Below are positions 14,589 to 52,905 of a stretch of DNA of 52,905 bases, piece after piece. The stretch is from an uncultured Mycoplasmatota bacterium (GTDB taxonomy: Bacteria; Bacillota_I; Bacilli_A; RF39; UBA660), in NCBI GenBank assembly GCA_946530475.1, contig CAMNAC010000001.1:1-52905 (forward strand), given 5' to 3'. A model generated the notes under the pieces. That model ran no database searches and was not told the DNA's origin. It saw nothing but the letters and a program-made list of their open reading frames with translations. The first letter of the stretch is position 1, and each line of letters begins with the position of its first letter. Both the position numbers and the translations under genes were made by a program.

Positions 14589-14607
14589 AAAAGCCATTTG
14601 GCTTTTT
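14588..14607. terminator. Bidirectional terminator between the convergent htpG and noc-like genes
   Basis: The stem AAAAGCC / GGCTTTT is flanked by an A-run and a T-run. Confidence 0.6.
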
Positions 14608-16198
14608 ATTTTTTTGTTACTTTGAAAATTACTTGATACATATTTTCTAAATCAAATTCATCTGTATCTACTTCATAACCTAACTGTTTTAAGTTTTCTG
14701 CACAAGCTCTAATTGCATCAAGTGCTTGTGTCATATTATTTGTTTGAGGAGCAGTATTAGGCACTGCTACAGTTGGTTCTGGAATCGAAGCTTCCATAGT
14801 TGGTTGTGAAACTGGTGCTGGTTCATTATCTAAATTTTCTAGAAAACTATAATCTGGTGTAGTTACAGGTCCAGTTGGCATTTGAGGTTGTGGTGCTTGT
14901 GGAAGTGATAAATCCAAATCCAATGGTTGCTCTGGTTCTTCTACAACTGCTTCTGTTGGCACTGTTGGTGCAGCAGGTGTTCCAACAACTGGTTCTGTAG
15001 GTACTGCTGGTGTCACAGGTTCTGATACAACTGGTGCAGCTGGAGTTACATCTGGCAATGAACTAATTGGCGCTGGTTCCAATACAGGAGCTTCTTGAAC
15101 TGGAGCTGGAGCAATTGGTTGCGCATTAAACCCATCTGCAACTGGAGAAGGCTCTAAATTTGGAATTTGTGGTTTTTCAGCTACATTTAATACATCAAAG
15201 AATTTTCCAGGAGTTACTTCAGGTGCTGCTGGTTGTGGTTGTGCTTCCACTGGAGCAGGTGCTGGAGCAATTCCGGATGGATTTAATAAATTGTTCACAT
15301 CTACAGAAGGTTTTGGCTCAAAAATATTGGTTGCATTTTGTTCAATTTGATTAATATCCATAAAACCAGGATTTACACTTGGTTCTTCATGTACCTCATC
15401 AATAATTGGAGATACTGGGATATTTACATTTTGATCATTCATTTTTGGTTCCTCCTTTTCATCTAAATCTAATACTTCTAATGGTTCTGAAACTTCTGGA
15501 ATAATAGGTGTTGCTTCTTTTACTTCAGGCATTACGGAAACTGGTTCAGGTACCTTATTTTCAACAGGTTTCTCTTCTATTGTCTCTTTATTTGTTCCAT
15601 TTAGTATTTTATTAATTTCTTCATCCGTTTTTCTTACTGTTAAACGTTTTTCTATAATCTTCTTCAATAATTCTCTTTGATCTTTTTGACTTAATTTTAA
15701 TAAAGAACGAGCATGTCTTTCTGATATTTTTTCATTTAACAAGGCTTCTTGTACATCATCATCTAGATTTAGCAAGCGAAGTTTATTTGCAACTGTAGAT
15801 TGATCTTTCCCTAATTTATCAGCCAATTGATTTTGGGTTAAATAGCCCATATCTAATATTTTCTTATAAGATACTGCTTCTTCAATTGGAGTTAAATCTT
15901 GTCTTTGTACGTTTTCAATCAATGCAATTTCTGCGCTATCTTTATCATCTAAGTTTGCAACTAATGCAGGTATTGTCTTCATACCAGCTAACACACTTGC
16001 TTTATAACGACGTTCTCCTGCTATAATTTCATATTTGTCTGCAATTGGTCTTACGACAATTGGTTGAATAACTCCATGTTCTTTAATAGATTCTGACAAC
16101 TCATTAATTGCATCTTCATCAAAACGAATTCTTGGTTGAAAACGGTTAGGTAAGATATCATCTAAATTTAATTCAATTACTTTTTTTTCTTCTTTCAT
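14606..16198 (-). CDS. noc: ParB/Noc family protein with a Noc-type HTH, a long Pro/Ala/Val-rich insertion and a Noc-like C-terminal domain (530 aa)
   Basis: The N-terminal domain contains LPNRFQPRIRF...HGVIQPIVVR...AGERRYKA (the GERR CTP-binding box). The HTH reads LTQNQLADKLGKDQSTVANKLRLLNL...ISERHARSL, close to B. subtilis Noc (GKGQSTIANKLRLLKLP...ITERHARAL) as I recall it. The C-terminus ALDAIRACAENLKQLGYEVDTDEFDLENMYQVIFKVTKK resembles the Noc C-terminal domain. The gene lies directly downstream of rsmG, the canonical noc position. Confidence 0.8.
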   Translation of the reverse strand: MKEEKKVIELNLDDILPNRFQPRIRFDEDAINELSESIKEHGVIQPIVVRPIADKYEIIAGERRYKASVLAGMKTIPALVANLDDKDSAEIALIENVQRQDLTPIEEAVSYKKILDMGYLTQNQLADKLGKDQSTVANKLRLLNLDDDVQEALLNEKISERHARSLLKLSQKDQRELLKKIIEKRLTVRKTDEEINKILNGTNKETIEEKPVENKVPEPVSVMPEVKEATPIIPEVSEPLEVLDLDEKEEPKMNDQNVNIPVSPIIDEVHEEPSVNPGFMDINQIEQNATNIFEPKPSVDVNNLLNPSGIAPAPAPVEAQPQPAAPEVTPGKFFDVLNVAEKPQIPNLEPSPVADGFNAQPIAPAPVQEAPVLEPAPISSLPDVTPAAPVVSEPVTPAVPTEPVVGTPAAPTVPTEAVVEEPEQPLDLDLSLPQAPQPQMPTGPVTTPDYSFLENLDNEPAPVSQPTMEASIPEPTVAVPNTAPQTNNMTQALDAIRACAENLKQLGYEVDTDEFDLENMYQVIFKVTKK

Positions 16199-19480: not shown

Positions 19481-19496
19481 TATTTCCCGGGAAATA
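19481..19496. promoter_or_regulatory. Perfect Noc-binding-site (NBS) palindrome TATTTCCCGGGAAATA
   Basis: The 16-bp perfect palindrome contains the published 14-bp NBS consensus ATTTCCCGGGAAAT. It lies between convergent genes. Confidence 0.6.
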
Positions 19497-23422: not shown

Positions 23423-23437
23423 GACTCACATCCTATC

Positions 23438-23465
23438 TAAAAAACCACTGAAGATCAGTGGTTTC
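23438..23465 (-). terminator. Intrinsic terminator/attenuator between rpmH and rnpA
   Basis: The stem AAACCACTG / CAGTGGTTT (23442-23464) has loop AAGAT and is followed on the minus strand by TTTTTT. It starts 2 nt after the rpmH stop. Confidence 0.6.
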
Positions 23466-23466
23466 A

Positions 23467-23589
23467 TTAATGTGCTAAATTTTTGCGTCCTTTTCTTCTT
23501 CTATTCGCAATAATTTTTGATTCTGAACGAGCTAAAAATCCTTGTTTTTTACTTTTTTTTCTATTATTAGGTTGAAAAGTTCTTTTCAT
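23467..23589 (-). CDS. rpmH: 50S ribosomal protein L34
   Basis: Manual translation gives [40 protein letters not shown] (40 aa), with the canonical MKRTFQP start. The ORF is too short for the ORF track. Confidence 0.9.
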
Positions 23590-23668
23590 ATGACACCTCC
23601 CTAAATTTCCCTTTGCTGTAGTTAATTATATAGATAAAAGTCTTTTTTGTCAAACATTATTTAATCTT

Positions 23669-23936
23669 TTTTTCCACTTTTTTGTGGAAAATTTTGTGTA
23701 TATTTTTTTTCTCCACATTTTTACTTGTTAATAAATTTATAGTTTTATTTTATTCCACATACTTTTCTACATATTTATTTCTTATTTTTTCTATTTATTC
23801 GACAATTTTCAACAAATTTGTGGAAAATGAAATCACAGCCTTTTTCCTATGTTTATAATTTTCTCCACAAAAATATGGAAAACTTATTTTTTTTATGACT
23901 TTCTTGTCTTTTTTCTGTGGGAAATATTGTGGATAA
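23669..23936. other. oriC part 1: DnaA-box cluster upstream of dnaA
   Basis: The plus-strand boxes are TTTTCCAC at 23669, TGTGGAAAA at 23683-23691 and TTCTCCACA at 23709-23717. Further boxes are TATTCCACA at 23751-23759, TGTGGAAAA at 23819-23827 and TTCTCCACA at 23861-23869. The last two are TGTGGGAAA at 23916-23924 and a perfect consensus TGTGGATAA at 23928-23936. An AT-rich tract follows, up to the dnaA RBS. Confidence 0.8.
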
Positions 23937-24026
23937 TTTTTTTTGTTCTTTTTTAATATTTTTTCTTTGCTTTTTCATAAAAATATTGTACAATAATGGT
24001 AAATTTTACAAAGTGAGGTGTTTAGG

Positions 24027-26716: not shown

Positions 26717-27163
26717 ATGTTAGAATCATATGAAGTAAATTCTTCTACACTTGCTTTATTAGCGCTTAATGAGCATACTACTAAAGTTGTGGAAAAAGAA
26801 AAGGAGTATTATATTTCTAAACCATCCATTAAAATTATGGATGATAGTTGTAAATACTTCGGAAGCTCTTATTTAGGTAGAGAAGAGGGATCTAGAAATT
26901 TAATAGGAAGTACTTATAAAGTACCAATTATTGTAGAGGAAACAAAGAGAATGATTTTTATTCCAACTTCTTCACCAAAATTTAGTACTTGTGATTGGAT
27001 TGCTTTTCATCATATTTATAAGTATGAAGAAAAAGAAAATGGACTTTATATCTTATTTGATAATGGAAAACAAATCAGTATTAATATGTCTTATTATTCG
27101 TTTGAAAACCAAATATTGAGAGCTTCTAAATTAGAAAACACGATTCGAAATAGAATTTCATAA
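26717..27163 (+). CDS. comK: ComK family competence transcription factor homolog (148 aa)
   Basis: LESYEVNSSTLALL, DDSCKYFGSSYLGREEGS, IFIPTSSPKFSTCDWI and SYYSFENQ match conserved blocks of B. subtilis ComK as recalled (LESYEVNGATIAVL, DRSCRFFGSSYAGRKAGT, LFPTLSS..QCGWI, SYNSFENQ). Confidence 0.8.
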   Translation: MLESYEVNSSTLALLALNEHTTKVVEKEKEYYISKPSIKIMDDSCKYFGSSYLGREEGSRNLIGSTYKVPIIVEETKRMIFIPTSSPKFSTCDWIAFHHIYKYEEKENGLYILFDNGKQISINMSYYSFENQILRASKLENTIRNRIS

Positions 27164-30357: not shown

Positions 30358-32844
30358 ATGGAAGAAGAAAATAAAACAAATGAATTTGGTGGCACCTTTC
30401 ATGAAAGAGATAGTCACTTAGAAAATAACATTGTAGATGAAGTTAAAAAATCTTTCTTGGATTATTCCATGAGTGTTATTACAGCCCGTGCGATTCCTGA
30501 TTTAAGAGATGGATTAAAACCGGTTCATAGAAGAATATTATGGACGATGTTTGAAGAAGGAAATACTCCTGATAAGCCTCATAAAAAATCAGCAACTACA
30601 GTTGGTGCTGTAATGGGTAGATACCATCCACATGGAGATAGTTCCATTTATGATGCCATGGTTCGTTTAGCGCAAAGCTTTAACCAAAGACATACTTTAG
30701 TAGATGGACATGGTAACTTTGGTAACATTGATGGTGATGGAGCTGCTGCATATCGTTATACAGAAGCAAGATTATCTAAGATTTCCTTAGAATTACTGAG
30801 AGATATTCGTAAGGAAACCGTTGATATGGATGATAACTTTGATGAATCATGCAAAGAACCACATGTTTTACCATCAAGATTTCCTAATATTTTGGTAAAT
30901 GGTTCTATGGGAATTGCAGTTGGTATGGCAACTAATATTCCACCTCATAATTTAGGAGAAGTAATCGATGGATGTGTTGCATACATAGATAATCCTGACA
31001 TTGATACATTAGGGTTAATGCAATATATTAAAGGGCCTGATTTTCCAACAGGAGCAGTTATTTTAGGTAACTCTGGTATTAAAAAGGCTTATGAAACAGG
31101 TAGAGGAAGTATTACAATTCGTTCTCGTGCTGTGATTGAAGAAGTTGGAAATCACAATCAAATTATATTTACTGAAGTTCCATATGGAGTAAATACTTCA
31201 GAATTAAAAAACAAAGTTGCAGAATTAGTTAGAGATAAAGTAATTGATGGAATTACTGATTACCATACGGATTTAAAAAATGGAGTTAAAATTACAATTA
31301 CTTTAAAGAAAGATTCTAATCCACAGGTTGTTTTAAATAACTTATATAAGCATACAAATTTTCAAATGAATTATGGAATTATATTCTTAATGCTAGATAA
31401 TGGTACTCCAAGAACACTTGGATTAAAAGATATTATTTCAAAATACATCGATTATCAAAAAGAAGTTATTATTAGAAGAACTCGCTTTGATTTAAAAAAA
31501 GATGAAGAAAGAGTTCATATTTTAGAAGGTTATAAAATAGCCTTAGATAATATCGATGAAGTTGTAAAAATTATTCGTAATGCGAATGATGATGAAGAAG
31601 CTAGAACAAATTTAATGAATCGATTTAATCTTACAGAAATTCAAGCAAATGCGATTCTAGAACTTAGATTACGTCGTTTAACTGGATTAGAAAGAGATAA
31701 AATTGAATCGGAATTAGCAGCATTATTAAAAGAAATTGAAGAATTAAAAGCTATTTTGGCGTCTGAACAAAAAGTATTGGATATCATTAAGAAAGAAATG
31801 CTTGAAATCAAAGAAAAATATGCAGACGAAAGACGTACAGAAATTGATATGACCGCAATTGATTATATTGAAGATGAAGCTTTAATTCCAAATGAAAAAG
31901 TAATTATCGCAATGACTGAAAAAGGTTATATTAAGAGAATGACTGTAGATACTTATAAAACTCAAAATAGAGGTGGTGTAGGTATCAAAGGTATGACTAC
32001 AAATGAAGAAGATTTTGTCGAACATATGATTGATATGAAGACTCACGATTACATCTTATTCTTTAGCAACAAAGGTAAAGTATATCGTATGAAAGGGTAT
32101 GAAGTTCCTCAATTTAGTAGGCAATCAAAAGGACTTCCTATCATTAATTTATTGCCATTAGAAAAAGAAGAAGTGATTCGTACAATTCTTAAGGTTGAAA
32201 CAGAAGATCCTAATAAATATTTGGTATTCTGTACAACAAATGGATTAGTTAAGAGAACTCAAGTTTCTGAATTTGAGAACATTCGTACGAGCGGTAAGAT
32301 TGCAATTTCATTAAAAGATAATGACGAACTATTAGCAGTTAGAAAGACTACAGGAAGCAATGAAATCTTAATTGCATCTTCGAATGGTAGAATGATCCAT
32401 TTCGATGAAAATGAAATAAGAGTTATGGGTAGAACAGCATCTGGAGTTCGCGGTATAGAAGTTGGTGATGGAAAAGCTGTTGGATGTGAAATAGCTGAAC
32501 CAAGTCAAAAAATTGTAATTGTTACTGAAAAAGGTTATGGAAAACAAACAAATTTGGATGAATATCGAATGACTCATAGGGGTAGTAAAGGTGTTAAAGC
32601 ACTTAATATTACAGAAAAGAATGGTAATATTGTTTCATTTAAAACAACAAAAGGTAATGAAGACTTAATGATTATTACAAATAGTGGTGTAATTATTCGT
32701 TTACCTTTAGCACAAGTTTCTACTACTGGAAGAGTTGCTCAAGGAGTTCGATTAATTCATTTAAAAGATGATCAGAGTGTTAGTAGTGTGGCATTACTCG
32801 AAAAAGAAGAACTTCAAGATGAACAAAATGAAGAAAAAGACTAA
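30358..32844 (+). CDS. gyrA: DNA gyrase subunit A
   Basis: FLDYSMSVITARAIPDLRDGLKPVHRRILW, the QRDR region GRYHPHGDSSIYDAMVRLAQ and the C-terminal beta-pinwheel repeats are present. Confidence 0.97.
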   Translation: MEEENKTNEFGGTFHERDSHLENNIVDEVKKSFLDYSMSVITARAIPDLRDGLKPVHRRILWTMFEEGNTPDKPHKKSATTVGAVMGRYHPHGDSSIYDAMVRLAQSFNQRHTLVDGHGNFGNIDGDGAAAYRYTEARLSKISLELLRDIRKETVDMDDNFDESCKEPHVLPSRFPNILVNGSMGIAVGMATNIPPHNLGEVIDGCVAYIDNPDIDTLGLMQYIKGPDFPTGAVILGNSGIKKAYETGRGSITIRSRAVIEEVGNHNQIIFTEVPYGVNTSELKNKVAELVRDKVIDGITDYHTDLKNGVKITITLKKDSNPQVVLNNLYKHTNFQMNYGIIFLMLDNGTPRTLGLKDIISKYIDYQKEVIIRRTRFDLKKDEERVHILEGYKIALDNIDEVVKIIRNANDDEEARTNLMNRFNLTEIQANAILELRLRRLTGLERDKIESELAALLKEIEELKAILASEQKVLDIIKKEMLEIKEKYADERRTEIDMTAIDYIEDEALIPNEKVIIAMTEKGYIKRMTVDTYKTQNRGGVGIKGMTTNEEDFVEHMIDMKTHDYILFFSNKGKVYRMKGYEVPQFSRQSKGLPIINLLPLEKEEVIRTILKVETEDPNKYLVFCTTNGLVKRTQVSEFENIRTSGKIAISLKDNDELLAVRKTTGSNEILIASSNGRMIHFDENEIRVMGRTASGVRGIEVGDGKAVGCEIAEPSQKIVIVTEKGYGKQTNLDEYRMTHRGSKGVKALNITEKNGNIVSFKTTKGNEDLMIITNSGVIIRLPLAQVSTTGRVAQGVRLIHLKDDQSVSSVALLEKEELQDEQNEEKD

Positions 32845-32859: not shown

Positions 32860-32946
32860 ATTGTCTGGGAAATAAACAAAATGCTAACGAATTAATTTTG
32901 GGAAATATTTTATATATAACATTGTATTTAGTTATTAAATTAGCGT

Positions 32947-33064
32947 ATGTTTCACGTGGAACTATGAAATTTTGTTGTTATGTTCCACGTGAAACTATAA
33001 AAGTATATCACTATGTTCCACGTGAAACTATAAAAGTATATCACTATGTTCCACGTGAAACTAT
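32947..33064. repeat. parS-like site cluster A: 4 copies at exact 33-bp spacing
   Basis: The 19-mers ATGTTYCACGTGRAACTAT lie at 32947-32965 (T/G variant), 32980-32998, 33013-33031 and 33046-33064. The inner 16-mer TGTTCCACGTGAAACT matches the parS consensus TGTTNCACGTGAAACA at 15/16 positions. Copies 2-4 sit in a perfect 33-bp tandem repeat, TATGTTCCACGTGAAACTATAAAAGTATATCAC. Confidence 0.8.
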
Positions 33065-33258
33065 GATTTAACGAATTTAATGTCTATATAAAATTGTAAT
33101 TATATTTGATATTATAATTATTGAGCAAAGCGCATAAATCCTTATTTTATAATGCTTTTATGTACTTACTTATATAATAGCACAACATAATTTAAGATAT
33201 TTTTATCTTAAATAATAAATCAAATTAAATATGCAATCTAATTAGAAATTAATATTTA

Positions 33259-33407
33259 ATGTTCCACGTGAAACTATAATAAACTGAACAATGTTCCACG
33301 TGAAACTATGAAATAATAAGACTATGTTCCACGTGAAACTATATCGCACTGAACAATGTTTCACGTGAAACTATGAAATAATAAGACTATGTTTCACGTG
33401 AAACTAT
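33259..33407. repeat. parS-like site cluster B: 5 copies at alternating 32/33-bp spacing
   Basis: The same 19-mer lies at 33259-33277, 33291-33309, 33324-33342, 33356-33374 and 33389-33407. The last two copies are the perfectly palindromic GTTTCACGTGAAAC variant. Copies 6-9 lie in a 65-bp tandem duplication. Confidence 0.8.
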
Positions 33408-33500
33408 ATTAATAATTAAATTTTGAAACAAATCTGTGTTTGTAAATAATGAAAAAAATATAAAATAATGAATTTAATAAAATAATTACAAAACATAACC

Positions 33501-33520
33501 AATATTTCCCGGGAAATATT
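33501..33520. promoter_or_regulatory. Perfect 20-bp palindrome containing an NBS (AATATTTCCCGGGAAATATT)
   Basis: The core TATTTCCCGGGAAATA lies at 33503-33518 and is identical to the copies at 19481 and 41100. Confidence 0.65.
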
Positions 33521-33565
33521 TGAAAACTATTGATTTTGTTTAAAAAATAGTGTATTTTATTAATT

Positions 33566-33640
33566 GACACAACATTTATGTATGAACCAGGTCAGAGTTG
33601 GAAGACAGCAGCCTTAAATACCTCTAAGTGTGTGTGTCAT
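33566..33640 (+). ncRNA. ffs: Small (4.5S-type) signal recognition particle RNA
   Basis: AACCAGGTCAGAGTTGGAAGACAGCAGCC matches the conserved domain IV of E. coli 4.5S RNA (ACCAGGUCAGGUCCGGAAGGAAGCAGCC), including the GGAA tetraloop. The 5' arm GACACAACATTTA pairs with the 3' arm TAAGTGTGTGTGTC to form one long hairpin, which is followed by a T-run. A possible promoter is TTGATT (33530) -17 nt- TATTTT (33553). The ends are approximate. Confidence 0.65.
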
Positions 33641-33657
33641 TTTTTTATGGTGATGTT

Positions 33658-34101
33658 ATGAATAAGTATATGGAAGAAGCTTTGAATGAGGCATATAAAT
33701 CCTTTAAAAAAGGTGATGTTCCAGTTGGAGCAGTGATTGTTAAAAATGGAAAGATAATTGCAAGAGCATATAATAAAAAAGAAAAAAAACAAGTCGCTAC
33801 GAAACATGCCGAAATAATTGCAATTGAAAAGGCCTGTAAGAAATTACACAATTGGCATTTGGATGGATGCGAATTATATGTAACTTTAGAACCTTGCTTG
33901 ATGTGTGCTGGAGCAATTATACAGAGTCGAATTTCAAAATTAGTATATGCGACTTCAAATGAAAAATTTGGCTTTGTTGAAAGCATAGATCATGTATTAG
34001 ATAATAAAAAAAATAATCATCATGTGGAAATCATTAAAGGAATTTGCGAAAAAGAAAGCCAAAAATTGTTAAAGAATTTTTTTAAAAATAAGAGAAGTTA
34101 A
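33658..34101 (+). CDS. tadA: tRNA-specific adenosine deaminase TadA
   Basis: The track ORF starts at GTG 33628, inside the SRP RNA. The ATG at 33658 (MNKYMEEALNEA) follows a GGTGA RBS. The CDA zinc motifs HAEIIAI and PCLMCAGA are present. Confidence 0.9.
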   Translation: MNKYMEEALNEAYKSFKKGDVPVGAVIVKNGKIIARAYNKKEKKQVATKHAEIIAIEKACKKLHNWHLDGCELYVTLEPCLMCAGAIIQSRISKLVYATSNEKFGFVESIDHVLDNKKNNHHVEIIKGICEKESQKLLKNFFKNKRS

Positions 34102-40530: not shown

Positions 40531-41373
40531 ATGTCACAAAAAAGTTATGACAATAGTCCTACTGTATATCTAATACCAACTCCAATTGGAAATATGGATG
40601 ATATGACTTTTAGAGCTGTAAAAATATTACAAGAAGTGGAAGTTATTTTTTCTGAGGATACAAGAGTTACAAATTTGTTATTAAAACACTTTGATATCCA
40701 TAAAAAATGTATTTCGAGCCATAAATTCAACGAAGAAAAAAATCATGAAAAACTTCTTTCTTATTTAGAAAAAGGCTTTCATGTTGGAGTTGTAAGTGAT
40801 AGGGGAACCCCTGTTATCAGCGATCCAGGTTATGAACTAGCAAAATATGCGATTGATAAAGGATATAATGTAGTAGGGTTACCAGGCGCAACAGCTTTAA
40901 TTCCCGCACTTATTATGTCTGGGATTTCTCCACAACCTTTCTTATTTTATGGATTCTTAAATAATAAGGATGGAAAAAGAAAGAAAGAATTAGAAAGTTT
41001 AAAAGAAGAAAAAGCAACTCTTATTTTTTATGAAGCACCTCATCGTTTAGAAAAAACATTGCTTTTGATGAAAGAAGTATTGGGAAATCGTAAGATAAGT
41101 ATTTCCCGGGAAATAAGTAAAAAGTTTGAAGAAGTTTATAGAGGAACTTTTGAAGAAGTTTTAAAAGAAGTAAAAGATGCAAAAGGAGAATTTGTAATTG
41201 TGGTAAGTGGAAATACAGATGAATCTTCTTTTGAACATTTATCTATTATTGAACATGTAAATTCATATTTAAAAGAAGGATATACAAAAAAAGAAGCATA
41301 TAAAAAGGTTGCTTCTGATAGGGGTATCAGTAAAAATGAAGTTTATCAAACATATGAAAGGGGGATTTTATGA
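40531..41373 (+). CDS. rsmI: 16S rRNA (cytidine1402-2'-O)-methyltransferase RsmI
   Basis: The track ORF starts at 40483. The ATG at 40531 follows a GGGAG RBS. LYLIPTPIGNMDDMTFRA, SDRGTPVISDPG and FYEAPHR are present. Confidence 0.9.
   Translation: MSQKSYDNSPTVYLIPTPIGNMDDMTFRAVKILQEVEVIFSEDTRVTNLLLKHFDIHKKCISSHKFNEEKNHEKLLSYLEKGFHVGVVSDRGTPVISDPGYELAKYAIDKGYNVVGLPGATALIPALIMSGISPQPFLFYGFLNNKDGKRKKELESLKEEKATLIFYEAPHRLEKTLLLMKEVLGNRKISISREISKKFEEVYRGTFEEVLKEVKDAKGEFVIVVSGNTDESSFEHLSIIEHVNSYLKEGYTKKEAYKKVASDRGISKNEVYQTYERGIL
41100..41115. promoter_or_regulatory. Perfect NBS palindrome TATTTCCCGGGAAATA inside the rsmI coding sequence
   Basis: The 16-mer is identical to the copies at 19481 and 33503 and encodes ...SISREIS... 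Confidence 0.55.
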
Positions 41374-49001: not shown

Positions 49002-49223
49002 AGTTTAAAAGTTTTGATGGAGAGGGAAAGAAGAATTTCTTTTAAAAGAGAATCTATGGTTGGTGAAAATAGATAAGAAAGCTTTTTTCAAATGGCTCTT
49101 GAACTGATTTACCGATAGGTAGGTAGATACGTAATTCTGCGTTAAAGATTTAAGGTGTATCTGGGATACATAAATTAAGGTGGTACCACGTAAACTACGT
49201 CCTTATCGGATGTGGTTTTTTTA
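49002..49223 (+). promoter_or_regulatory. T-box leader (Met-specific candidate) with terminator, upstream of metG
   Basis: An extended -10 (TGTTATACT) lies at 48987-48995. An AGAGA box and a GGTGAAA distal-loop motif are present. The candidate AUG specifier is at 49092-49094 (CAAAUGG), just 5' of the Stem I closing strand. The T-box sequence AATTAAGGTGGTACCACG lies at 49174-49190. The terminator stem ACGTCC/GGATGT (49197-49213) is followed by a T-run. Confidence 0.8.
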
Positions 49224-49238
49224 TTTAGGAGGGATAAT

Positions 49239-50804
49239 ATGAAAGAAAAATACTATATTTCCACTGCGATTGCTTATACATCAGGGAAACCACATATTGG
49301 AAATACTTATGAAATTGTTCTTGCAGATGCGATTGCTCGATACAAACGTTTTTTAGGGTATGATGTTTATTTCCAAACAGGAACTGATGAACATGGGGAA
49401 AAAATTGAATTAAAGGCAAAAGCACAAGGAAAAGAGCCACAAGAATTTGTTGATGAAATCGCATTAGAAGTAAGAAGAATTTGGGATACGATGAATACAA
49501 GCTATGATAAGTTTGTAAGAACAACTGCACCATCTCATATGGAAGAAGTTGCGAAAATCTTTAAGCGATTATATGATCAAGGGGATATTTATAAAGGAAA
49601 ATACGAAGGTTTATATTGTACTCCATGTGAATCTTTCTTTACCGAAAGTCAATTAGTAGATGGAAAATGTCCAGATTGCGGAAGAGAAGTTCATGTCGCA
49701 TCAGAAGAAGCATATTTCTTTAAACTTGAAAAATATGCGAAAAGATTAGAAGAATATATCGAAACACACCCAGATTTTATTCAACCTGAATCAAGAAAAA
49801 ATGAAATTATTAATAACTTTATTAAGCCTGGTTTACAAGATTTATGTGTATCTCGTACTTCTTTTGACTGGGGTATACCAGTATCATTTGATGAAAAACA
49901 TGTTGTCTATGTTTGGATCGATGCATTAAGTAACTATATTACCTTCTTAGGTTACCATACTGAAGAGGAATCTGAAGAAGATTTTAAAAAGTATTGGCCT
50001 GCAGATTTGCATCTAATTGGAAAAGATATTTTAAGATTTCATACAATTTACTGGCCAATTATGTTAATGGCATTGGATTTACCTTTACCAAAACAAATCT
50101 TTGGACATCCTTGGGTATTGATTGGAACAGATAAGATGAGTAAATCCAAAGGAAACATCATCTATGCAGATGATTTAGTAAATCTATTTGGGGTAGATGC
50201 GGTAAGATATTATTTATTACATGAAATTCCATTTGCATCGGATGGAACGATTACATATGAATTACTAATTGAACGAATCAATTCTGATTTAGCGAATATC
50301 TTAGGAAATTTAGTCAATCGTACTATCAGCATGAGTCATAAATACTTTGATGGAGTTGTATTAGAACCAAAAGAAGAAGAGAAAATTGATCAAGAATTAA
50401 AATCTTTAGTTTTAGATACAACAGAAAAAGTAAATCAAAAAATGGATCGTCTTCGTATAGCAGACGCTATCGACGATATTTTTGAAATCTTTAGAAGATG
50501 TAATAAATACATTGATGAAACAACTCCTTGGGCACTTGCAAAAGAGGAATCAAAAAAAGAAAGATTACAAACTGTCTTATATAACTTATTAGAATCTATT
50601 CGTCATGGAGCTGTTTTGTTACAATCTTTTTTACCAGAGACTGCAGATTCTATTTTTCATCAATTAAATACGGAAAATAGATATTATGAATCTTTATCTA
50701 ACTTTAATGGATTGGATTATGGAATTCATTTAAATAAGCCAGAACCATTATTTATACGTATTGATAAAGAAAAAAAATTAAAAGAAATTGAAGAAAGTGA
50801 ATAA
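49239..50804 (+). CDS. metG: Methionine--tRNA ligase (short form, no C-terminal tRNA-binding appendix)
   Basis: The preferred start MKEKYYISTAIAYTSGKPHIGN (HIGH motif) follows an AGGAGG RBS. A zinc knuckle (CTPCESF...CPDCG) and the KMSKS motif are present. Confidence 0.95.
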   Translation: MKEKYYISTAIAYTSGKPHIGNTYEIVLADAIARYKRFLGYDVYFQTGTDEHGEKIELKAKAQGKEPQEFVDEIALEVRRIWDTMNTSYDKFVRTTAPSHMEEVAKIFKRLYDQGDIYKGKYEGLYCTPCESFFTESQLVDGKCPDCGREVHVASEEAYFFKLEKYAKRLEEYIETHPDFIQPESRKNEIINNFIKPGLQDLCVSRTSFDWGIPVSFDEKHVVYVWIDALSNYITFLGYHTEEESEEDFKKYWPADLHLIGKDILRFHTIYWPIMLMALDLPLPKQIFGHPWVLIGTDKMSKSKGNIIYADDLVNLFGVDAVRYYLLHEIPFASDGTITYELLIERINSDLANILGNLVNRTISMSHKYFDGVVLEPKEEEKIDQELKSLVLDTTEKVNQKMDRLRIADAIDDIFEIFRRCNKYIDETTPWALAKEESKKERLQTVLYNLLESIRHGAVLLQSFLPETADSIFHQLNTENRYYESLSNFNGLDYGIHLNKPEPLFIRIDKEKKLKEIEESE

Positions 50805-50918
50805 CTTTCTTTTTTTGTCAAACGATGTAAAATGTCGAAAGAAAACGATAAGAAATCTTTTAAAACCTTTTAGTTTTATGATATAGTGATATTGTTGTGA
50901 TAAAGATAGGAGAAACAT

Positions 50919-51086
50919 ATGAAACAGAGTAAATTGGATATTTGTTATGTGATATATGGTTTACTAGCAGTATCATTTATCTTGTTGTTTCTAGCAATGA
51001 AAAGTAATTTACAAATTGAATTCATTTATTTAGGTGCATTAGACTACTGTTTTATTCGTTATTTATGGAAGAAAAAGAATACTTGA
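50919..51086 (+). CDS. Possible small membrane protein (55 aa)
   Basis: An AGGAG RBS lies at 50908-50912. Manual translation gives MKQSKLDICYVIYGLLAVSFILLFLAMKSNLQIEFIYLGALDYCFIRYLWKKKNT. The ORF is below the track's size cutoff and no homology is recognised. Confidence 0.3.
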   Translation: MKQSKLDICYVIYGLLAVSFILLFLAMKSNLQIEFIYLGALDYCFIRYLWKKKNT

Positions 51087-51126
51087 TTATACGCTTTATG
51101 GTATAATTTTTTTTGAGGTGAAATTT

Positions 51127-51888
51127 ATGATGATTGATACACATTGTCATTTAAGTAAAGATGACTATTCAAATCTAGAAGAAATAATTCATCATATGGA
51201 TGGAAATATCATGATCGTAAGTGGCGCGGATATGAAAATGAACTATGAAGTAGTGGAATTATGTCAAAAATATTCGAACATTTATGGAACATTAGGGATT
51301 CATCCTGAAAACCCAGAAGAATATACTTTAGAGAATAAAAATTGGATCAAGGAACAAGCAAAGAATCCTAAAATTATAGGAATTGGTGAAATTGGGTTAG
51401 ATTATCATTATGGAAAAGAAAATAGAGAAAAACAAATTGAAATATTTTTAGATCAAATAGAGTTAGCGAAATCTTTAAATCTACCAATTATTATTCATAG
51501 TAGGGATGCAGACCAAGAGACGTTTGATTTATTAAAAGAACATGCAAAGGGAATGAAGTTTCATCTACATTGTTATAGTGGTAGTGCAGAACTTGCGAAA
51601 GAATATTTAAAATTAGGAGCCAAATTTGGCATAGGGGGAGTTGTAACATTTAAAAATGGAAGAAGATTACAAGAAGTAGTCAAGGAAGTTCCTTTAACAT
51701 CGTTGCTATTAGAAACAGATTCTCCTTATCTTTCTCCAGAACCTTTTAGGGGACATCAAAATGAACCTTATAATATTCTTTATGTCGCAAAAAAAATAGC
51801 GGAAATTAAAGAAATTCCATTCGAAAAAGTGATTGAGCAAACAAACCAAAATAGCATTTCACAATTTGACTTACCTATTCATTTATGA
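51127..51888 (+). CDS. tatD: TatD family metal-dependent hydrolase (YabD)
   Basis: The ATG at 51127 lies 6 nt after GAGGTG. IDTHCHL, GEIGLDYHY, IIHSRDA and ETDSPYL are present. An extended -10 (TGGTATAAT) lies at 51099-51107. Confidence 0.9.
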   Translation: MMIDTHCHLSKDDYSNLEEIIHHMDGNIMIVSGADMKMNYEVVELCQKYSNIYGTLGIHPENPEEYTLENKNWIKEQAKNPKIIGIGEIGLDYHYGKENREKQIEIFLDQIELAKSLNLPIIIHSRDADQETFDLLKEHAKGMKFHLHCYSGSAELAKEYLKLGAKFGIGGVVTFKNGRRLQEVVKEVPLTSLLLETDSPYLSPEPFRGHQNEPYNILYVAKKIAEIKEIPFEKVIEQTNQNSISQFDLPIHL

Positions 51889-51926
51889 TAAGATTTTTAT
51901 AGGAAAAAATATGAGGTGAAAAAGAA

Positions 51927-52634
51927 ATGAATTTATATTTATTTCAGTTTGCTTTTAAATGGTTTAGTTTATTTATCGTTTCTCTTTCTTCCATATTTGG
52001 AGGAGTAGATGTATTAAAAAGTACTTCTGCTATATTAAATGGAAATAAGAATCGAAATAAAACAGTGATTAATAATGTAATTGAGTTTGATACAGAAATT
52101 AAATATAACAATAAACTTCCATCTGATGTAACGAATGTTATTACAGAAGGAGAAATTGGAGTTAGTTATACCGATGAAGAAACAAATGAAGTAAAAATCA
52201 TCCAGGAACCTGTTACAAAAGTAGTGGAACAGGGAAATGGAGACGCTTCTGAATATGTTGGAAGAAGTACTGGATACGGTCCAGACTGCTATGGATGTAG
52301 TGCGGTAGGGAATGTTGCTTGTTTTACAAGAGAACACACGAATCATAGTTTGATTTATGATGGAGTAACCTATACAGATACAGAATATGGAGAAGTTCGT
52401 ATTTTGGCTGCAGATCATCAAAAATTTCCATGTGGAACAATCGTATATGTAGAAACCGGTAAAGGAGATCCATTTATGGGAATTGTCCTAGATACTGGTA
52501 GTTCTATGAGAGAAGCTTGGAGAGAATATGGTCAAGTATGGATGGACATTGCCTATGAATCTGAAGATGCTGCTTCAAAAGGTGGTATCACAAGTATGGA
52601 TACAAAATATACAGTAAAAAGATGGGGTTGGTAA
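51927..52634 (+). CDS. 3D-domain (MltA/RlpA-like barrel) cell-wall protein, YabE/YuiC-like
   Basis: An N-terminal signal anchor is present. The C-terminus FPCGTIVYVETGKGDPFMGIVLDTGSSM...MDIAYESEDAA resembles 3D domains. It follows tatD as yabE does in Bacillus. Confidence 0.55.
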   Translation: MNLYLFQFAFKWFSLFIVSLSSIFGGVDVLKSTSAILNGNKNRNKTVINNVIEFDTEIKYNNKLPSDVTNVITEGEIGVSYTDEETNEVKIIQEPVTKVVEQGNGDASEYVGRSTGYGPDCYGCSAVGNVACFTREHTNHSLIYDGVTYTDTEYGEVRILAADHQKFPCGTIVYVETGKGDPFMGIVLDTGSSMREAWREYGQVWMDIAYESEDAASKGGITSMDTKYTVKRWGW

Positions 52635-52727: not shown

Positions 52728-52905
52728 ATGAAGAAAAAAGGATTTACCTTAATTGAACTTTTAGCGGTGATTGTAATTTTAGCAGTGATCGCACTTATTG
52801 CAACCCCACTCATTATGAATGTGATCAATGATGCGAAAAAGAATAGCTTTAAAGATTCTGCTTATGGAATTATCAAAGCAGTGGAACTAAGAGCAATGCA
52901 AGAAA
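52728..52905 (+). CDS. Type IV pilin / ComGC-like prepilin (N-terminal part, runs off the window end)
   Basis: Manual translation gives MKKKGFTLIELLAVIVILAVIALIATPLI, i.e. the class III signal KGFTLIELL with the invariant Glu at +5. An AGGAAGGAGGG RBS is present. Confidence 0.75.
   Translation, partial: MKKKGFTLIELLAVIVILAVIALIATPLIMNVINDAKKNSFKDSAYGIIKAVELRAMQE

What the first reader, a model, noticed from the sequence alone, without database searches (positions are those of the whole stretch)
32947..33407. Nine phased parS-like sites packed into about 460 bp just downstream of gyrA: a plasmid-style centromere array on a chromosome
The 19-mer ATGTTYCACGTGRAACTAT occurs 9 times, at 32947, 32980, 33013, 33046, 33259, 33291, 33324, 33356 and 33389. 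Its inner 16-mer, TGTTCCACGTGAAACT, matches the Firmicute parS consensus TGTTNCACGTGAAACA at 15/16 positions, and two copies carry the perfectly palindromic core GTTTCACGTGAAAC. Spacing is 33/33/33 bp in cluster A and 32/33/32/33 bp in cluster B. That is close to three helical turns, so all sites would face the same side of the helix. In B. subtilis the roughly 8-10 parS sites are dispersed over hundreds of kb, one of them inside spo0J. A dense, phased tandem array resembles plasmid centromeres much more than known Firmicute chromosomal parS layouts. No canonical ParB and no ParA gene lies in this 53-kb origin window.
Basis: partly seen in the sequence, partly recalled or inferred. Interest (0 to 1): 0.8.

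Follow-up and report, generated by a model that had tools for sequence, protein, structure and literature searches.

The report
Tandem parS centromere array near origin
The nine repeats are real, near-consensus ParB-binding (parS) sites packed between gyrA and the SRP-RNA/tadA genes about 9 kb from the replication origin of an uncultured rumen Bacilli bacterium; they are most likely this lineage's ordinary chromosomal centromere, enlarged by tandem duplication, rather than a plasmid-style novelty.

Summary
Nine exact copies of ATGTTYCACGTGRAACTAT lie at the stated coordinates, spaced 33/33/33 and 32/33/32/33 bp, with none elsewhere in the window (0.01 expected by chance).

- The sites are canonical parS (15/16 to consensus) and lie about 9 kb from oriC.
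- Seven other species of the same uncultured low-GC Bacilli lineage carry 3-10 parS in the gyrA-ffs-tadA(-dnaX) spacers. About 1.15 Mb of lineage DNA around noc and parAB holds none.
- Spacing differs between species (35 to 153 bp), and copy number differs between strains (5, 7 or 9) by whole-unit indels. The 33-bp "phase" is therefore a by-product of tandem duplication, not a conserved design.
- Tight parS triplets occur in at least 120 genomes of many phyla, so dense chromosomal clusters are not plasmid-specific.
- The window does encode a ParB-family protein (14606-16198). Its specificity residues are Q-K-N-R, the Noc type, and three perfect Noc-binding sites are present. It is predicted not to read parS.
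- Canonical Soj-ParB (R-x-R-G) is widespread in the lineage. In two syntenic relatives it lies about 8 kb beyond the gene order at the window's right end. It was not shown for this species.

Verdict: a new member of a known kind, of modest interest.

The parts
32947..33064 (.). parS cluster A: four sites. The 16-mers lie at 32948-32963, 32981-32996, 33014-33029 and 33047-33062, with a 33-bp period.
   Evidence: Units 2 and 3 are identical, spacer included. Strains L128 and L132 lack exactly one 33-bp unit.
33065..33258 (.). AT-rich 194-bp spacer between the two clusters
   Evidence: It is present with the same length (within 1 bp) and largely the same sequence in all strains of the species. 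No Rfam family matches it. Promoter-like matches in the region are fewer than in shuffles (5 against 9.1 expected). Its function is unknown.
33259..33407 (.). parS cluster B: five sites. The 16-mers lie at 33260-33275, 33292-33307, 33325-33340, 33357-33372 and 33390-33405. The unit is a 65-bp double unit (32+33).
   Evidence: Other strains have 4, 3 or 2 sites here, differing by whole units.
33504..33517 (.). Perfect Noc-binding site ATTTCCCGGGAAAT, starting 97 bp after the last 19-mer repeat
   Evidence: It is invariant in all strains. An NBS also lies in the gyrA-tadA spacer in L015, L218 and L064.
33556..33651 (+). Small SRP RNA gene (ffs), immediately downstream of the array
   Evidence: Rfam RF00169, 59.2 bits against a gathering score of 40.
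30358..32844 (+). gyrA, the upstream flank of the array
   Evidence: ORF of 828 aa. Pfam DNA_topoisoIV/DNA_gyraseA_C hits on the same gene in L127.
33658..34101 (+). tadA (tRNA adenosine deaminase), the downstream flank
   Evidence: Pfam. The exact 147-aa product was found on 8 contigs.
14606..16198 (-). The only ParB-family gene in the window. It is Noc-like, carries specificity residues Q-K-N-R, and is the predicted reader of the NBS sites rather than of the array.
   Evidence: Pfam ParB_N + HTH_ParB. TIGR04285 Noc scores 289.9 bits, and 303 bits with the linker removed, against a cutoff of 315. Best PDB matches are Noc structures 7NG0/7NFU. Specificity rules come from PMC7383237.
19482..19495 (.). 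Perfect NBS
41101..41114 (.). Perfect NBS
23423..24017 (.). Probable oriC (the rnpA/rpmH-dnaA spacer), used as the reference point for 'origin-proximal'
   Evidence: Six DnaA-box matches at 23683-23936. The GC skew changes sign at about 24 kb.

Best explanation
The array is the chromosomal centromere (parS cluster) of this lineage. It is a set of canonical ParB nucleation sites about 9 kb from oriC that has grown by tandem duplication of a unit of roughly 33 bp containing one parS. By analogy with characterised ParABS systems (inference), a canonical ParB encoded outside the window would bind each 16-bp palindrome as a dimer. It would close as a CTP clamp and slide off, so that many adjacent sites multiply the loading rate at one locus. 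The resulting ParB complex would be partitioned by Soj/ParA and would recruit SMC.

Shown here:
- the sequence identity to parS;
- the origin proximity;
- the conservation of a multi-site cluster at this locus across species;
- turnover by whole units;
- the existence of canonical Soj-ParB in the lineage.

Inferred:
- that this species has that ParB;
- that ParB binds the AAACT variant of the site;
- that copy number matters.
For: 1. All nine sites match TGTTNCACGTGNAACA at 15/16, and chance expects 0.01.
2. The array is about 9 kb from the DnaA-box cluster and GC-skew switch.
3. Seven other species of the lineage (GyrA 69-73% or TadA 70-80% identical) carry 3-10 perfect parS in the gyrA-ffs-tadA(-dnaX) spacers. 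These are L015, L025, L031 and L064 and L218, L219 and L221. The last three were chosen by TadA homology, not by the motif.
4. The 14-bp core is invariant except at the two N positions, while spacers differ between species and even between strains.
5. No parS core occurs in about 1.15 Mb (redundant) of lineage DNA around noc and parAB, nor in the other 52.4 kb of the window. The repeat is therefore not dispersed, and this locus is the specific home of parS.
6. Canonical ParB with Soj exists in the lineage. In L191 it lies on the same contig as a Noc-like orthologue. On the 355-kb contig Ga0334893_1000020, Soj-ParB lies about 41 kb from noc. 115 of 117 scorable ParB homologues carry R-x-R-G.
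7. The gene order MetRS-small ORF-TatD-G5 protein at the window's right end continues in two relatives to KsgA-...-TilS-FtsH-x-Soj-ParB.
8. Strains differ by whole 33- or 65-bp units.
Against: No parS-type ParB or ParA was found for this species itself. Every assembly of it ends near window position 52.9 kb, where a pilin-like ORF replaces the ksgA seen in relatives. Three ParB candidates that were looked up came from other samples.

All nine sites carry T instead of A at position 16. Binding of ParB to this variant is assumed, not tested.

A single parS suffices in several model species (PMC7333895), so the extra copies need not be functional.

The copy number rests on short-read assemblies.
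Confidence: 0.8

Rival explanations
1. The multi-copy state has no selected function. One parS is the working centromere, and the other copies are neutral products of replication slippage or unequal recombination (a minisatellite seeded by a parS).
For: Copy number varies among strains (9, 7 and 5) by whole units, and some units are identical including their spacers. Reviews state that a single parS is often sufficient (PMC7333895; title of PMC4368675).
Against: Every species examined keeps at least 3 sites at this locus, with unrelated unit lengths and spacer sequences. Multiplicity is therefore either maintained or repeatedly regained. Cores stay perfect while spacers drift. Tight triplets recur in at least 120 genomes of many phyla.
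Confidence: 0.12
2. The in-window Noc-like ParB paralogue reads the array, either with dual specificity or as the lineage's only ParB. On this view the array is a Noc-type or hybrid landing pad rather than a ParB centromere.
For: It is the only ParB-family gene in the 53-kb origin window. A perfect NBS lies within 25-97 bp of the parS cluster in the window, in L015 and in L218. The protein is atypical for Noc: it has no N-terminal membrane helix and carries a linker of about 300 aa.
Against: Its specificity residues are Q173-K179-N184-R201, and 100 of 113 orthologues have QKNR. In the deep mutational scan, parS binders have an invariable R173, and dual-specificity variants mostly carry T/S at position 201 (PMC7383237). 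Perfect NBS sites are present as its natural targets (3 in the window; 13 in 1.15 Mb of lineage DNA). A canonical R-x-R-G ParB coexists with it on the same contigs in relatives.
Confidence: 0.04
3. The array is an operator for a transcription factor that recognises CACGTG and regulates ffs/tadA or gyrA.
For: The array is intergenic and lies directly upstream of the SRP RNA gene and tadA.
Against: Conservation extends over the full 16-bp parS consensus, not just CACGTG. In L025 and L064 arrays also lie between tadA and dnaX and after dnaX. Promoter-like matches in the region are below the shuffle expectation. No candidate regulator was identified.
Confidence: 0.02
4. The array is an assembly artefact, or a mobile or plasmid-derived insertion.
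For: Several assemblies have N-gaps or contig ends inside the array. IMG/VR elements with tandem parS arrays exist.
Against: Independent assemblies from different studies (ENA and Logan) recover the same bipartite layout between the same core genes. The locus is conserved across species. There is no similarity to any plasmid, and only short, weak phage matches.
Confidence: 0.02

Closest known systems
Chromosomal origin-proximal parS clusters of ParABS systems (e.g. B. subtilis, Caulobacter, P. aeruginosa parS1-4, Streptomyces coelicolor with 20-23 sites)
   Same: It has the same 16-bp palindrome consensus and the same origin-proximal placement. Multiple sites per chromosome are normal, and a ParB with R173/G201 is the expected reader. 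Reviews already note 1 to about 23 sites per genome and their clustering (PMC7333895).
   Different: The sites are packed head to tail at 32-33 bp, as tandem duplicates in about 460 bp, rather than spread over kilobases to hundreds of kilobases. The cluster sits at gyrA-ffs-tadA, not beside parAB/rsmG. In the sampled lineage DNA no parS occurs anywhere else. Copy number varies between strains.
Plasmid centromere arrays (F sopC, twelve 43-bp repeats each with a 16-bp inverted repeat; other iterated parC/parS arrays; from my own knowledge)
   Same: It is a direct-repeat array in which each unit holds one palindromic ParB site, and the spacing is regular because of tandem duplication.
   Different: It lies on a chromosome between core genes. 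It uses the universal chromosomal parS sequence rather than a plasmid-specific one. It is not adjacent to a parAB operon. It has no sequence similarity to any plasmid in PLSDB.
Noc-binding sites (NBS, ATTTCCCGGGAAAT) and the Noc/ParB paralogue pair of Bacilli
   Same: The window holds three perfect NBS and a Noc-type paralogue. parS and NBS differ at only two positions per half-site (PMC7383237).
   Different: The array sites have G at position 1 and A at position 6, which is the parS state, so they are not NBS.
ParA-less ParB-parS-SMC systems of Streptococcus pneumoniae and Staphylococcus aureus
   Same: They are Bacilli in which the origin region lacks soj. This is what the window looks like on its own (PMC7333895).
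   Different: Relatives of this organism do have soj directly upstream of parB. ParA absence is therefore not supported for the lineage.

Membership tests
Chromosomal parS (ParABS centromere) | 16-bp palindrome matching TGTTNCACGTGNAACA | tested here: met
   All nine sites match at 15/16, and the 14-bp core is perfect.
Chromosomal parS (ParABS centromere) | Located near the replication origin | tested here: met
   The array is about 9 kb from the DnaA-box cluster and GC-skew switch.
Chromosomal parS (ParABS centromere) | Sites conserved in related genomes while flanking and spacer sequence diverges | tested here: met
   Seven other species have 3-10 perfect sites at the same locus with unrelated spacers. 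Strain alignment A1 shows the same pattern.
Chromosomal parS (ParABS centromere) | Cognate ParB with a parS-type helix-turn-helix (R173, G201) encoded in the same genome | tested here: inconclusive
   It is not in the window. It is present with Soj in lineage relatives, on the same contigs as Noc-like orthologues. The contig of this species ends before the expected position.
Chromosomal parS (ParABS centromere) | Specific, CTP-dependent ParB binding and loading; SMC recruitment | not testable with these tools
   This needs EMSA/BLI, ChIP-seq and Hi-C.
Plasmid-type centromere array (sopC/parC-like) | Carried on a plasmid or other extrachromosomal replicon next to its own parAB operon | tested here: not met
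   The array lies between gyrA and ffs/tadA within a syntenic dnaA-dnaN-recF-gyrBA-tadA-dnaX-recR block. No parAB operon is adjacent.
Plasmid-type centromere array (sopC/parC-like) | Replicon-specific repeat sequence distinct from chromosomal parS; similarity to known plasmid centromeres | tested here: not met
   The sequence is the universal chromosomal consensus. blastn against PLSDB gives no match.
Helically phased binding-site array | Spacing conserved at an integral number of helical turns | tested here: not met
   A 33-bp step gives about 51 degrees of rotation per site. Relatives use 35-153 bp. Across 219 spacings from genomes, the vector strength for a 10.5-bp period is 0.14.
Noc-binding sites (NBS) | ATTTCCCGGGAAAT core (A at position 1, C at position 6 of the half-site) | tested here: not met
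   The array sites have the parS bases G and A. Separate perfect NBS lie at 19482, 33504 and 41101.
Dispersed repeat (REP/MITE-like) | Copies scattered at many loci | tested here: not met
   No copy occurs elsewhere in the window or in 1.15 Mb of lineage DNA. The whole genome of this species was not available.
Noc (for the 530-aa protein at 14606-16198) | Specificity residues Q173, K179 and/or K184, R201; NBS sites in the genome | tested here: met
   The residues are Q-K-N-R. Rules come from PMC7383237. Three perfect NBS are present.
Noc (for the 530-aa protein at 14606-16198) | Reaches the curated TIGR04285 cutoff; has the N-terminal membrane-targeting helix | tested here: not met
   It scores 289.9 bits, or 303 bits with the linker deleted and end-to-end alignment, against a cutoff of 315. 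Its N-terminus is about 22 residues shorter than Noc in 7NFU/7OL9, and the ORF cannot be extended upstream.

The most novel reading that the evidence does not exclude
The gyrA-ffs spacer may be a composite landing pad. In this reading the whole parS complement of the chromosome is concentrated in one copy-number-variable tandem array and is paired with an adjacent NBS. An unusual Noc paralogue (no membrane helix, a long disordered linker of variable length, Q-K-N-R) would then load right beside ParB and act with it at the centromere, instead of doing classical membrane-tethered nucleoid occlusion. Array copy number would tune 'centromere strength' between strains.
Probability: 0.1. Interest if true: 0.6.

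Novelty: new member of a known kind. Interest (0 to 1): 0.3.

Why it matters
It gives a clean natural example bearing on a question that reviews pose explicitly: why parS sites cluster and what drives their number (PMC7333895). In this lineage the cluster visibly grows and shrinks by tandem unit duplication, even between strains. It appears to hold all parS sites sampled so far, and it sits apart from parAB. That makes it a convenient system for testing whether site number changes ParB loading or SMC recruitment. It does not change the current picture of bacterial chromosome segregation.

Tried and rejected
1. A plasmid or phage origin. blastn of the array against PLSDB gave no match, and against phages only short weak hits.
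2. Helical phasing as a design rule. It was rejected from the spacings in relatives and from a periodicity test on 219 spacings.
3. It was rejected on its specificity residues.
4. Finding the ParB of this very species. All contigs that carry the window's last complete gene end about 260 bp after it. ParB candidates P0186, P0238 and P0235 came from other samples, and P0170 from another species.
5. Linking the array and parAB on one contig. The TadA orthologue of the 355-kb contig Ga0334893_1000020 was not among the 120 TadA hits listed, so its gyrA-tadA spacer could not be fetched.
6. An RNA gene or promoter in the 194-bp spacer. Rfam finds nothing there, and promoter-like hits are below the shuffle expectation.
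7. Livny et al. 2007 (PMC2168934) could not be read.
The true frequency of tandem parS clusters across species is therefore unknown.

Full report
**Observation.**
All copies are in one orientation, and no further hit appears in the 52,905-bp window even with two mismatches allowed. Shuffles expect 0.01. Tandem Repeats Finder sees a 33-bp array at 32946-33064 and a 65-bp double unit (32+33) at 33259-33412. The repeat finder shows that units 2 and 3 of cluster A are identical, spacers included. The inner 16-mer matches TGTTNCACGTGNAACA at 15/16. Position 16 is T in all nine copies, and two copies have the perfect core GTTTCACGTGAAAC.

**Setting.**
The window (29.1% G+C) is the origin region of a low-GC Bacilli-type genome from sheep-rumen metagenomes (ENA SHIW14 scaffolds, NCBI AUXO01).
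- The gene order is dnaB-rplI ... whiA-yvcK-lgt ... uvrB, htpG, a ParB-family gene, rsmG-mnmG-mnmE-jag-yidC-rnpA-rpmH | dnaA-dnaN-comK-recF-gyrB-gyrA-[array]-ffs-tadA-dnaX-ybaB-recR-holB ... mfd ... MetRS-TatD.
- Six DnaA-box matches cluster at 23683-23936, and the GC skew changes sign at about 24 kb. The array is therefore about 9 kb from oriC.
- Rfam places the small SRP RNA gene at 33556-33651, between the array and tadA.

**The ParB-family gene in the window is a Noc, not the parS reader.**
ORF 14606-16198 (530 aa) has ParB_N and HTH_ParB domains.
- It scores best against the Noc model TIGR04285: 289.9 bits against a cutoff of 315. With the linker removed in silico it scores 303 bits and aligns end to end.
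- Its best PDB matches are Noc structures 7NG0/7NFU (E = 5e-60), ahead of Spo0J 1VZ0 (5e-52).
- Jalal et al. 2020 (PMC7383237) showed that four residues set specificity. ParB has R173/T179/A184/G201 and Noc has Q/K/K/R. R173 is invariable in parS binders, and one lysine at 179 or 184 suffices for NBS binding.
- The window protein reads gkdQST..anKlrllN..sERhar, that is Q-K-N-R. 100 of 113 close orthologues share QKNR.
- In agreement, three perfect Noc-binding sites ATTTCCCGGGAAAT lie at 19482, 33504 and 41101.

No ParA is present in the window.

**Comparative evidence for the array.**
- The hits come from Actinomycetota (Collinsella, Streptomyces), Acidobacteriota, Planctomycetota, Bacteroidota, Proteobacteria and Bacillota.
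- Clusters hold 3-7 sites with regular spacing, and most lie beside rsmG/mnmG. Tight tandem parS clusters are thus a widespread chromosomal feature.
- Four 'uncultured Bacilli' MAGs (GyrA 69-73% identical to the window's) carry theirs in the same place as the window. L015 and L031 have it between gyrA and tadA. L025 has 5+2+3 sites in three successive spacers from gyrA to beyond dnaX. L064 has it between tadA and dnaX.
- Three more species were chosen only by TadA homology. L218 has 6 sites in a 208-bp double unit, L219/L220 have 3 sites, and L221 has 3 sites. All are in the gyrA-ffs-tadA spacer.
- By contrast, about 1.15 Mb (redundant) of DNA from this lineage around noc and parAB contains no parS core and 13 NBS.
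- The cores are invariant apart from the two N positions. Unit length (33, 35, 37, 38/41, 42, 44, 46/113, 53/153 bp) and spacer sequence are not conserved.

**Turnover.**
Contigs that encode an identical TadA (the same species, from different samples) show 4+5 sites (the window), 3+4 (L128), 3+2 (L132) and ?+3 (L127, L130). The differences are clean whole-unit indels. The A-spacer-B-NBS-ffs layout and the 194-bp spacer are kept. Several assemblies break or carry N-gaps in the array, so absolute copy numbers have some uncertainty. The regular spacing is most simply the footprint of tandem duplication. A 33-bp step rotates 51 degrees per site. Across 219 spacings from the genome scan there is no 10.5-bp periodicity (vector strength 0.14).

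A metagenome scan with the Noc-like N-terminal domain gave 80 lineage loci. Three of them (L191, L200, L205) carry soj and a second ParB 5-6 kb downstream of noc.
- The L191 ParB (296 aa) reads GKSRSHITNILGLLRLP...SMGHAR, that is R-I-R-G, the canonical parS type.
- Its 120 best homologues (68-100% identical, labelled Bacilli or Mollicutes bacterium MAGs) are R-x-R-G in 115 of the 117 that could be scored.
- One of them, P0202, lies on the 355-kb contig Ga0334893_1000020. That contig also carries the Noc-like orthologue of L138, which is 80% identical to the window's over the N-terminal 205 residues. Soj-ParB lies about 41 kb from noc, in the order MetRS-small ORF-TatD-G5 protein-KsgA-...-TilS-FtsH-x-Soj-ParB-MscS-DUF951-AbgT-YchF-rpsF-ssb-rpsR.
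- A second species shows the same order from MetRS, and two more from FtsH or its upstream neighbours onward.
- The window ends with MetRS-small ORF-TatD-G5 protein (49212-52634). By synteny, soj-parB is expected roughly 8-10 kb further on.
- However, the window's next ORF is pilin-like rather than ksgA. The shared proteins are only 48-78% identical to these relatives. All assemblies of this species stop there.

The presence of ParAB in this species is therefore a strong inference, not a demonstration.

**Mechanism (inferred).**
In characterised systems, ParB dimers nucleate on parS, bind CTP, close into clamps and slide away. This frees the site for the next dimer. The resulting complex is moved by ParA and loads SMC (reviews PMC7333895 and PMC7022226). 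Nine adjacent sites would act as a high-capacity loading platform at a single origin-proximal locus. Whether multiplicity is selected, or merely tolerated slippage, is open. Retention of at least 3 sites in every species argues for some selection. Strain-level variation argues that the exact number is not critical.

**Comparison and novelty.**
This is a chromosomal parS cluster of the known kind.
- It differs from textbook Firmicute layouts by being tandem, very dense, copy-number variable, located at gyrA-ffs rather than beside parAB, and apparently the only parS locus in the sampled DNA.
- It is not plasmid-like in sequence or context.
- Tandem arrays of chromosomal-type parS do also occur on small IMG/VR elements that lack their own ParAB.
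- Reviews already record 1 to about 23 sites per genome and ask why they cluster.

I rate it a new member of a known kind, with interest 0.3.

Noticed in passing
window 14606-16198 (-): The Noc-type paralogue is atypical. Its N-terminus is about 22 aa shorter than Noc, so it has no membrane-targeting helix. It carries a P/A/V/E-rich linker of about 300 aa, and its C-terminal domain still aligns with the Noc model. Orthologues are 270-530 aa long. They share the linker motifs NPGFMDIxxIE and GKFF and a C-terminal DFxxxYQxIxKV. What a Noc without its membrane helix does is unclear.
   Followed up: partly
window 14934-15035: A 42-bp tandem repeat (2.4 copies) lies inside the linker-coding part of the Noc-like gene. 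This fits the large length variation of the linker among orthologues.
   Followed up: no
window 19482-19495, 33504-33517, 41101-41114; L015:547, L218:5321, L064:3693: Perfect Noc-binding sites are frequent: 3 in 53 kb. One also lies inside the gyrA-tadA spacer, 25-97 bp from the parS cluster, in the window, L015 and L218. L064 also has one in that spacer. Half-site-like TGGGAAAT motifs also flank the array (window 32866 and 32899) and recur in the L218 units.
   Followed up: partly
L222-L297 (IMG/VR), e.g. IMGVR_UViG_3300045988_* contigs of about 12 kb: 76 viral-catalogue contigs carry 3-9 canonical parS cores at 26-45 bp spacing, often at both contig ends, which suggests circular elements. 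None has a Soj-like gene and only one has a ParB-like gene. They are candidates for mobile elements that borrow the host ParB.
   Followed up: partly
L004-L123 (genome contigs): Tandem parS triplets or longer arrays lie next to rsmG/mnmG in many phyla. Collinsella species share a fixed 39/39-bp triplet. Some Streptomyces have arrays at 24, 29 or 33 bp, and L045 has five sites at 23 bp. The scan was truncated, so the prevalence is unknown.
   Followed up: partly
window 26717-27163 (+): A comK homologue sits between dnaN and recF in the origin block. It is conserved there in relatives L015, L025, L219 and L221.
   Followed up: no
window 52728-52905 (+): A pilin-like ORF (MKKKGFTLIELLAVIV...) runs off the window end, at the point where relatives have ksgA. 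All assemblies of this species end within about 260 bp of here. This may be a variable or repeated region.
   Followed up: no
window 33628-34101 and 33556-33651: The longest tadA ORF (GTG at 33628) overlaps the SRP RNA gene. The product found in public assemblies starts at ATG 33658.
   Followed up: yes
window 49005-49207: A T-box leader lies upstream of the MetRS-like gene at 49212-50804.
   Followed up: no
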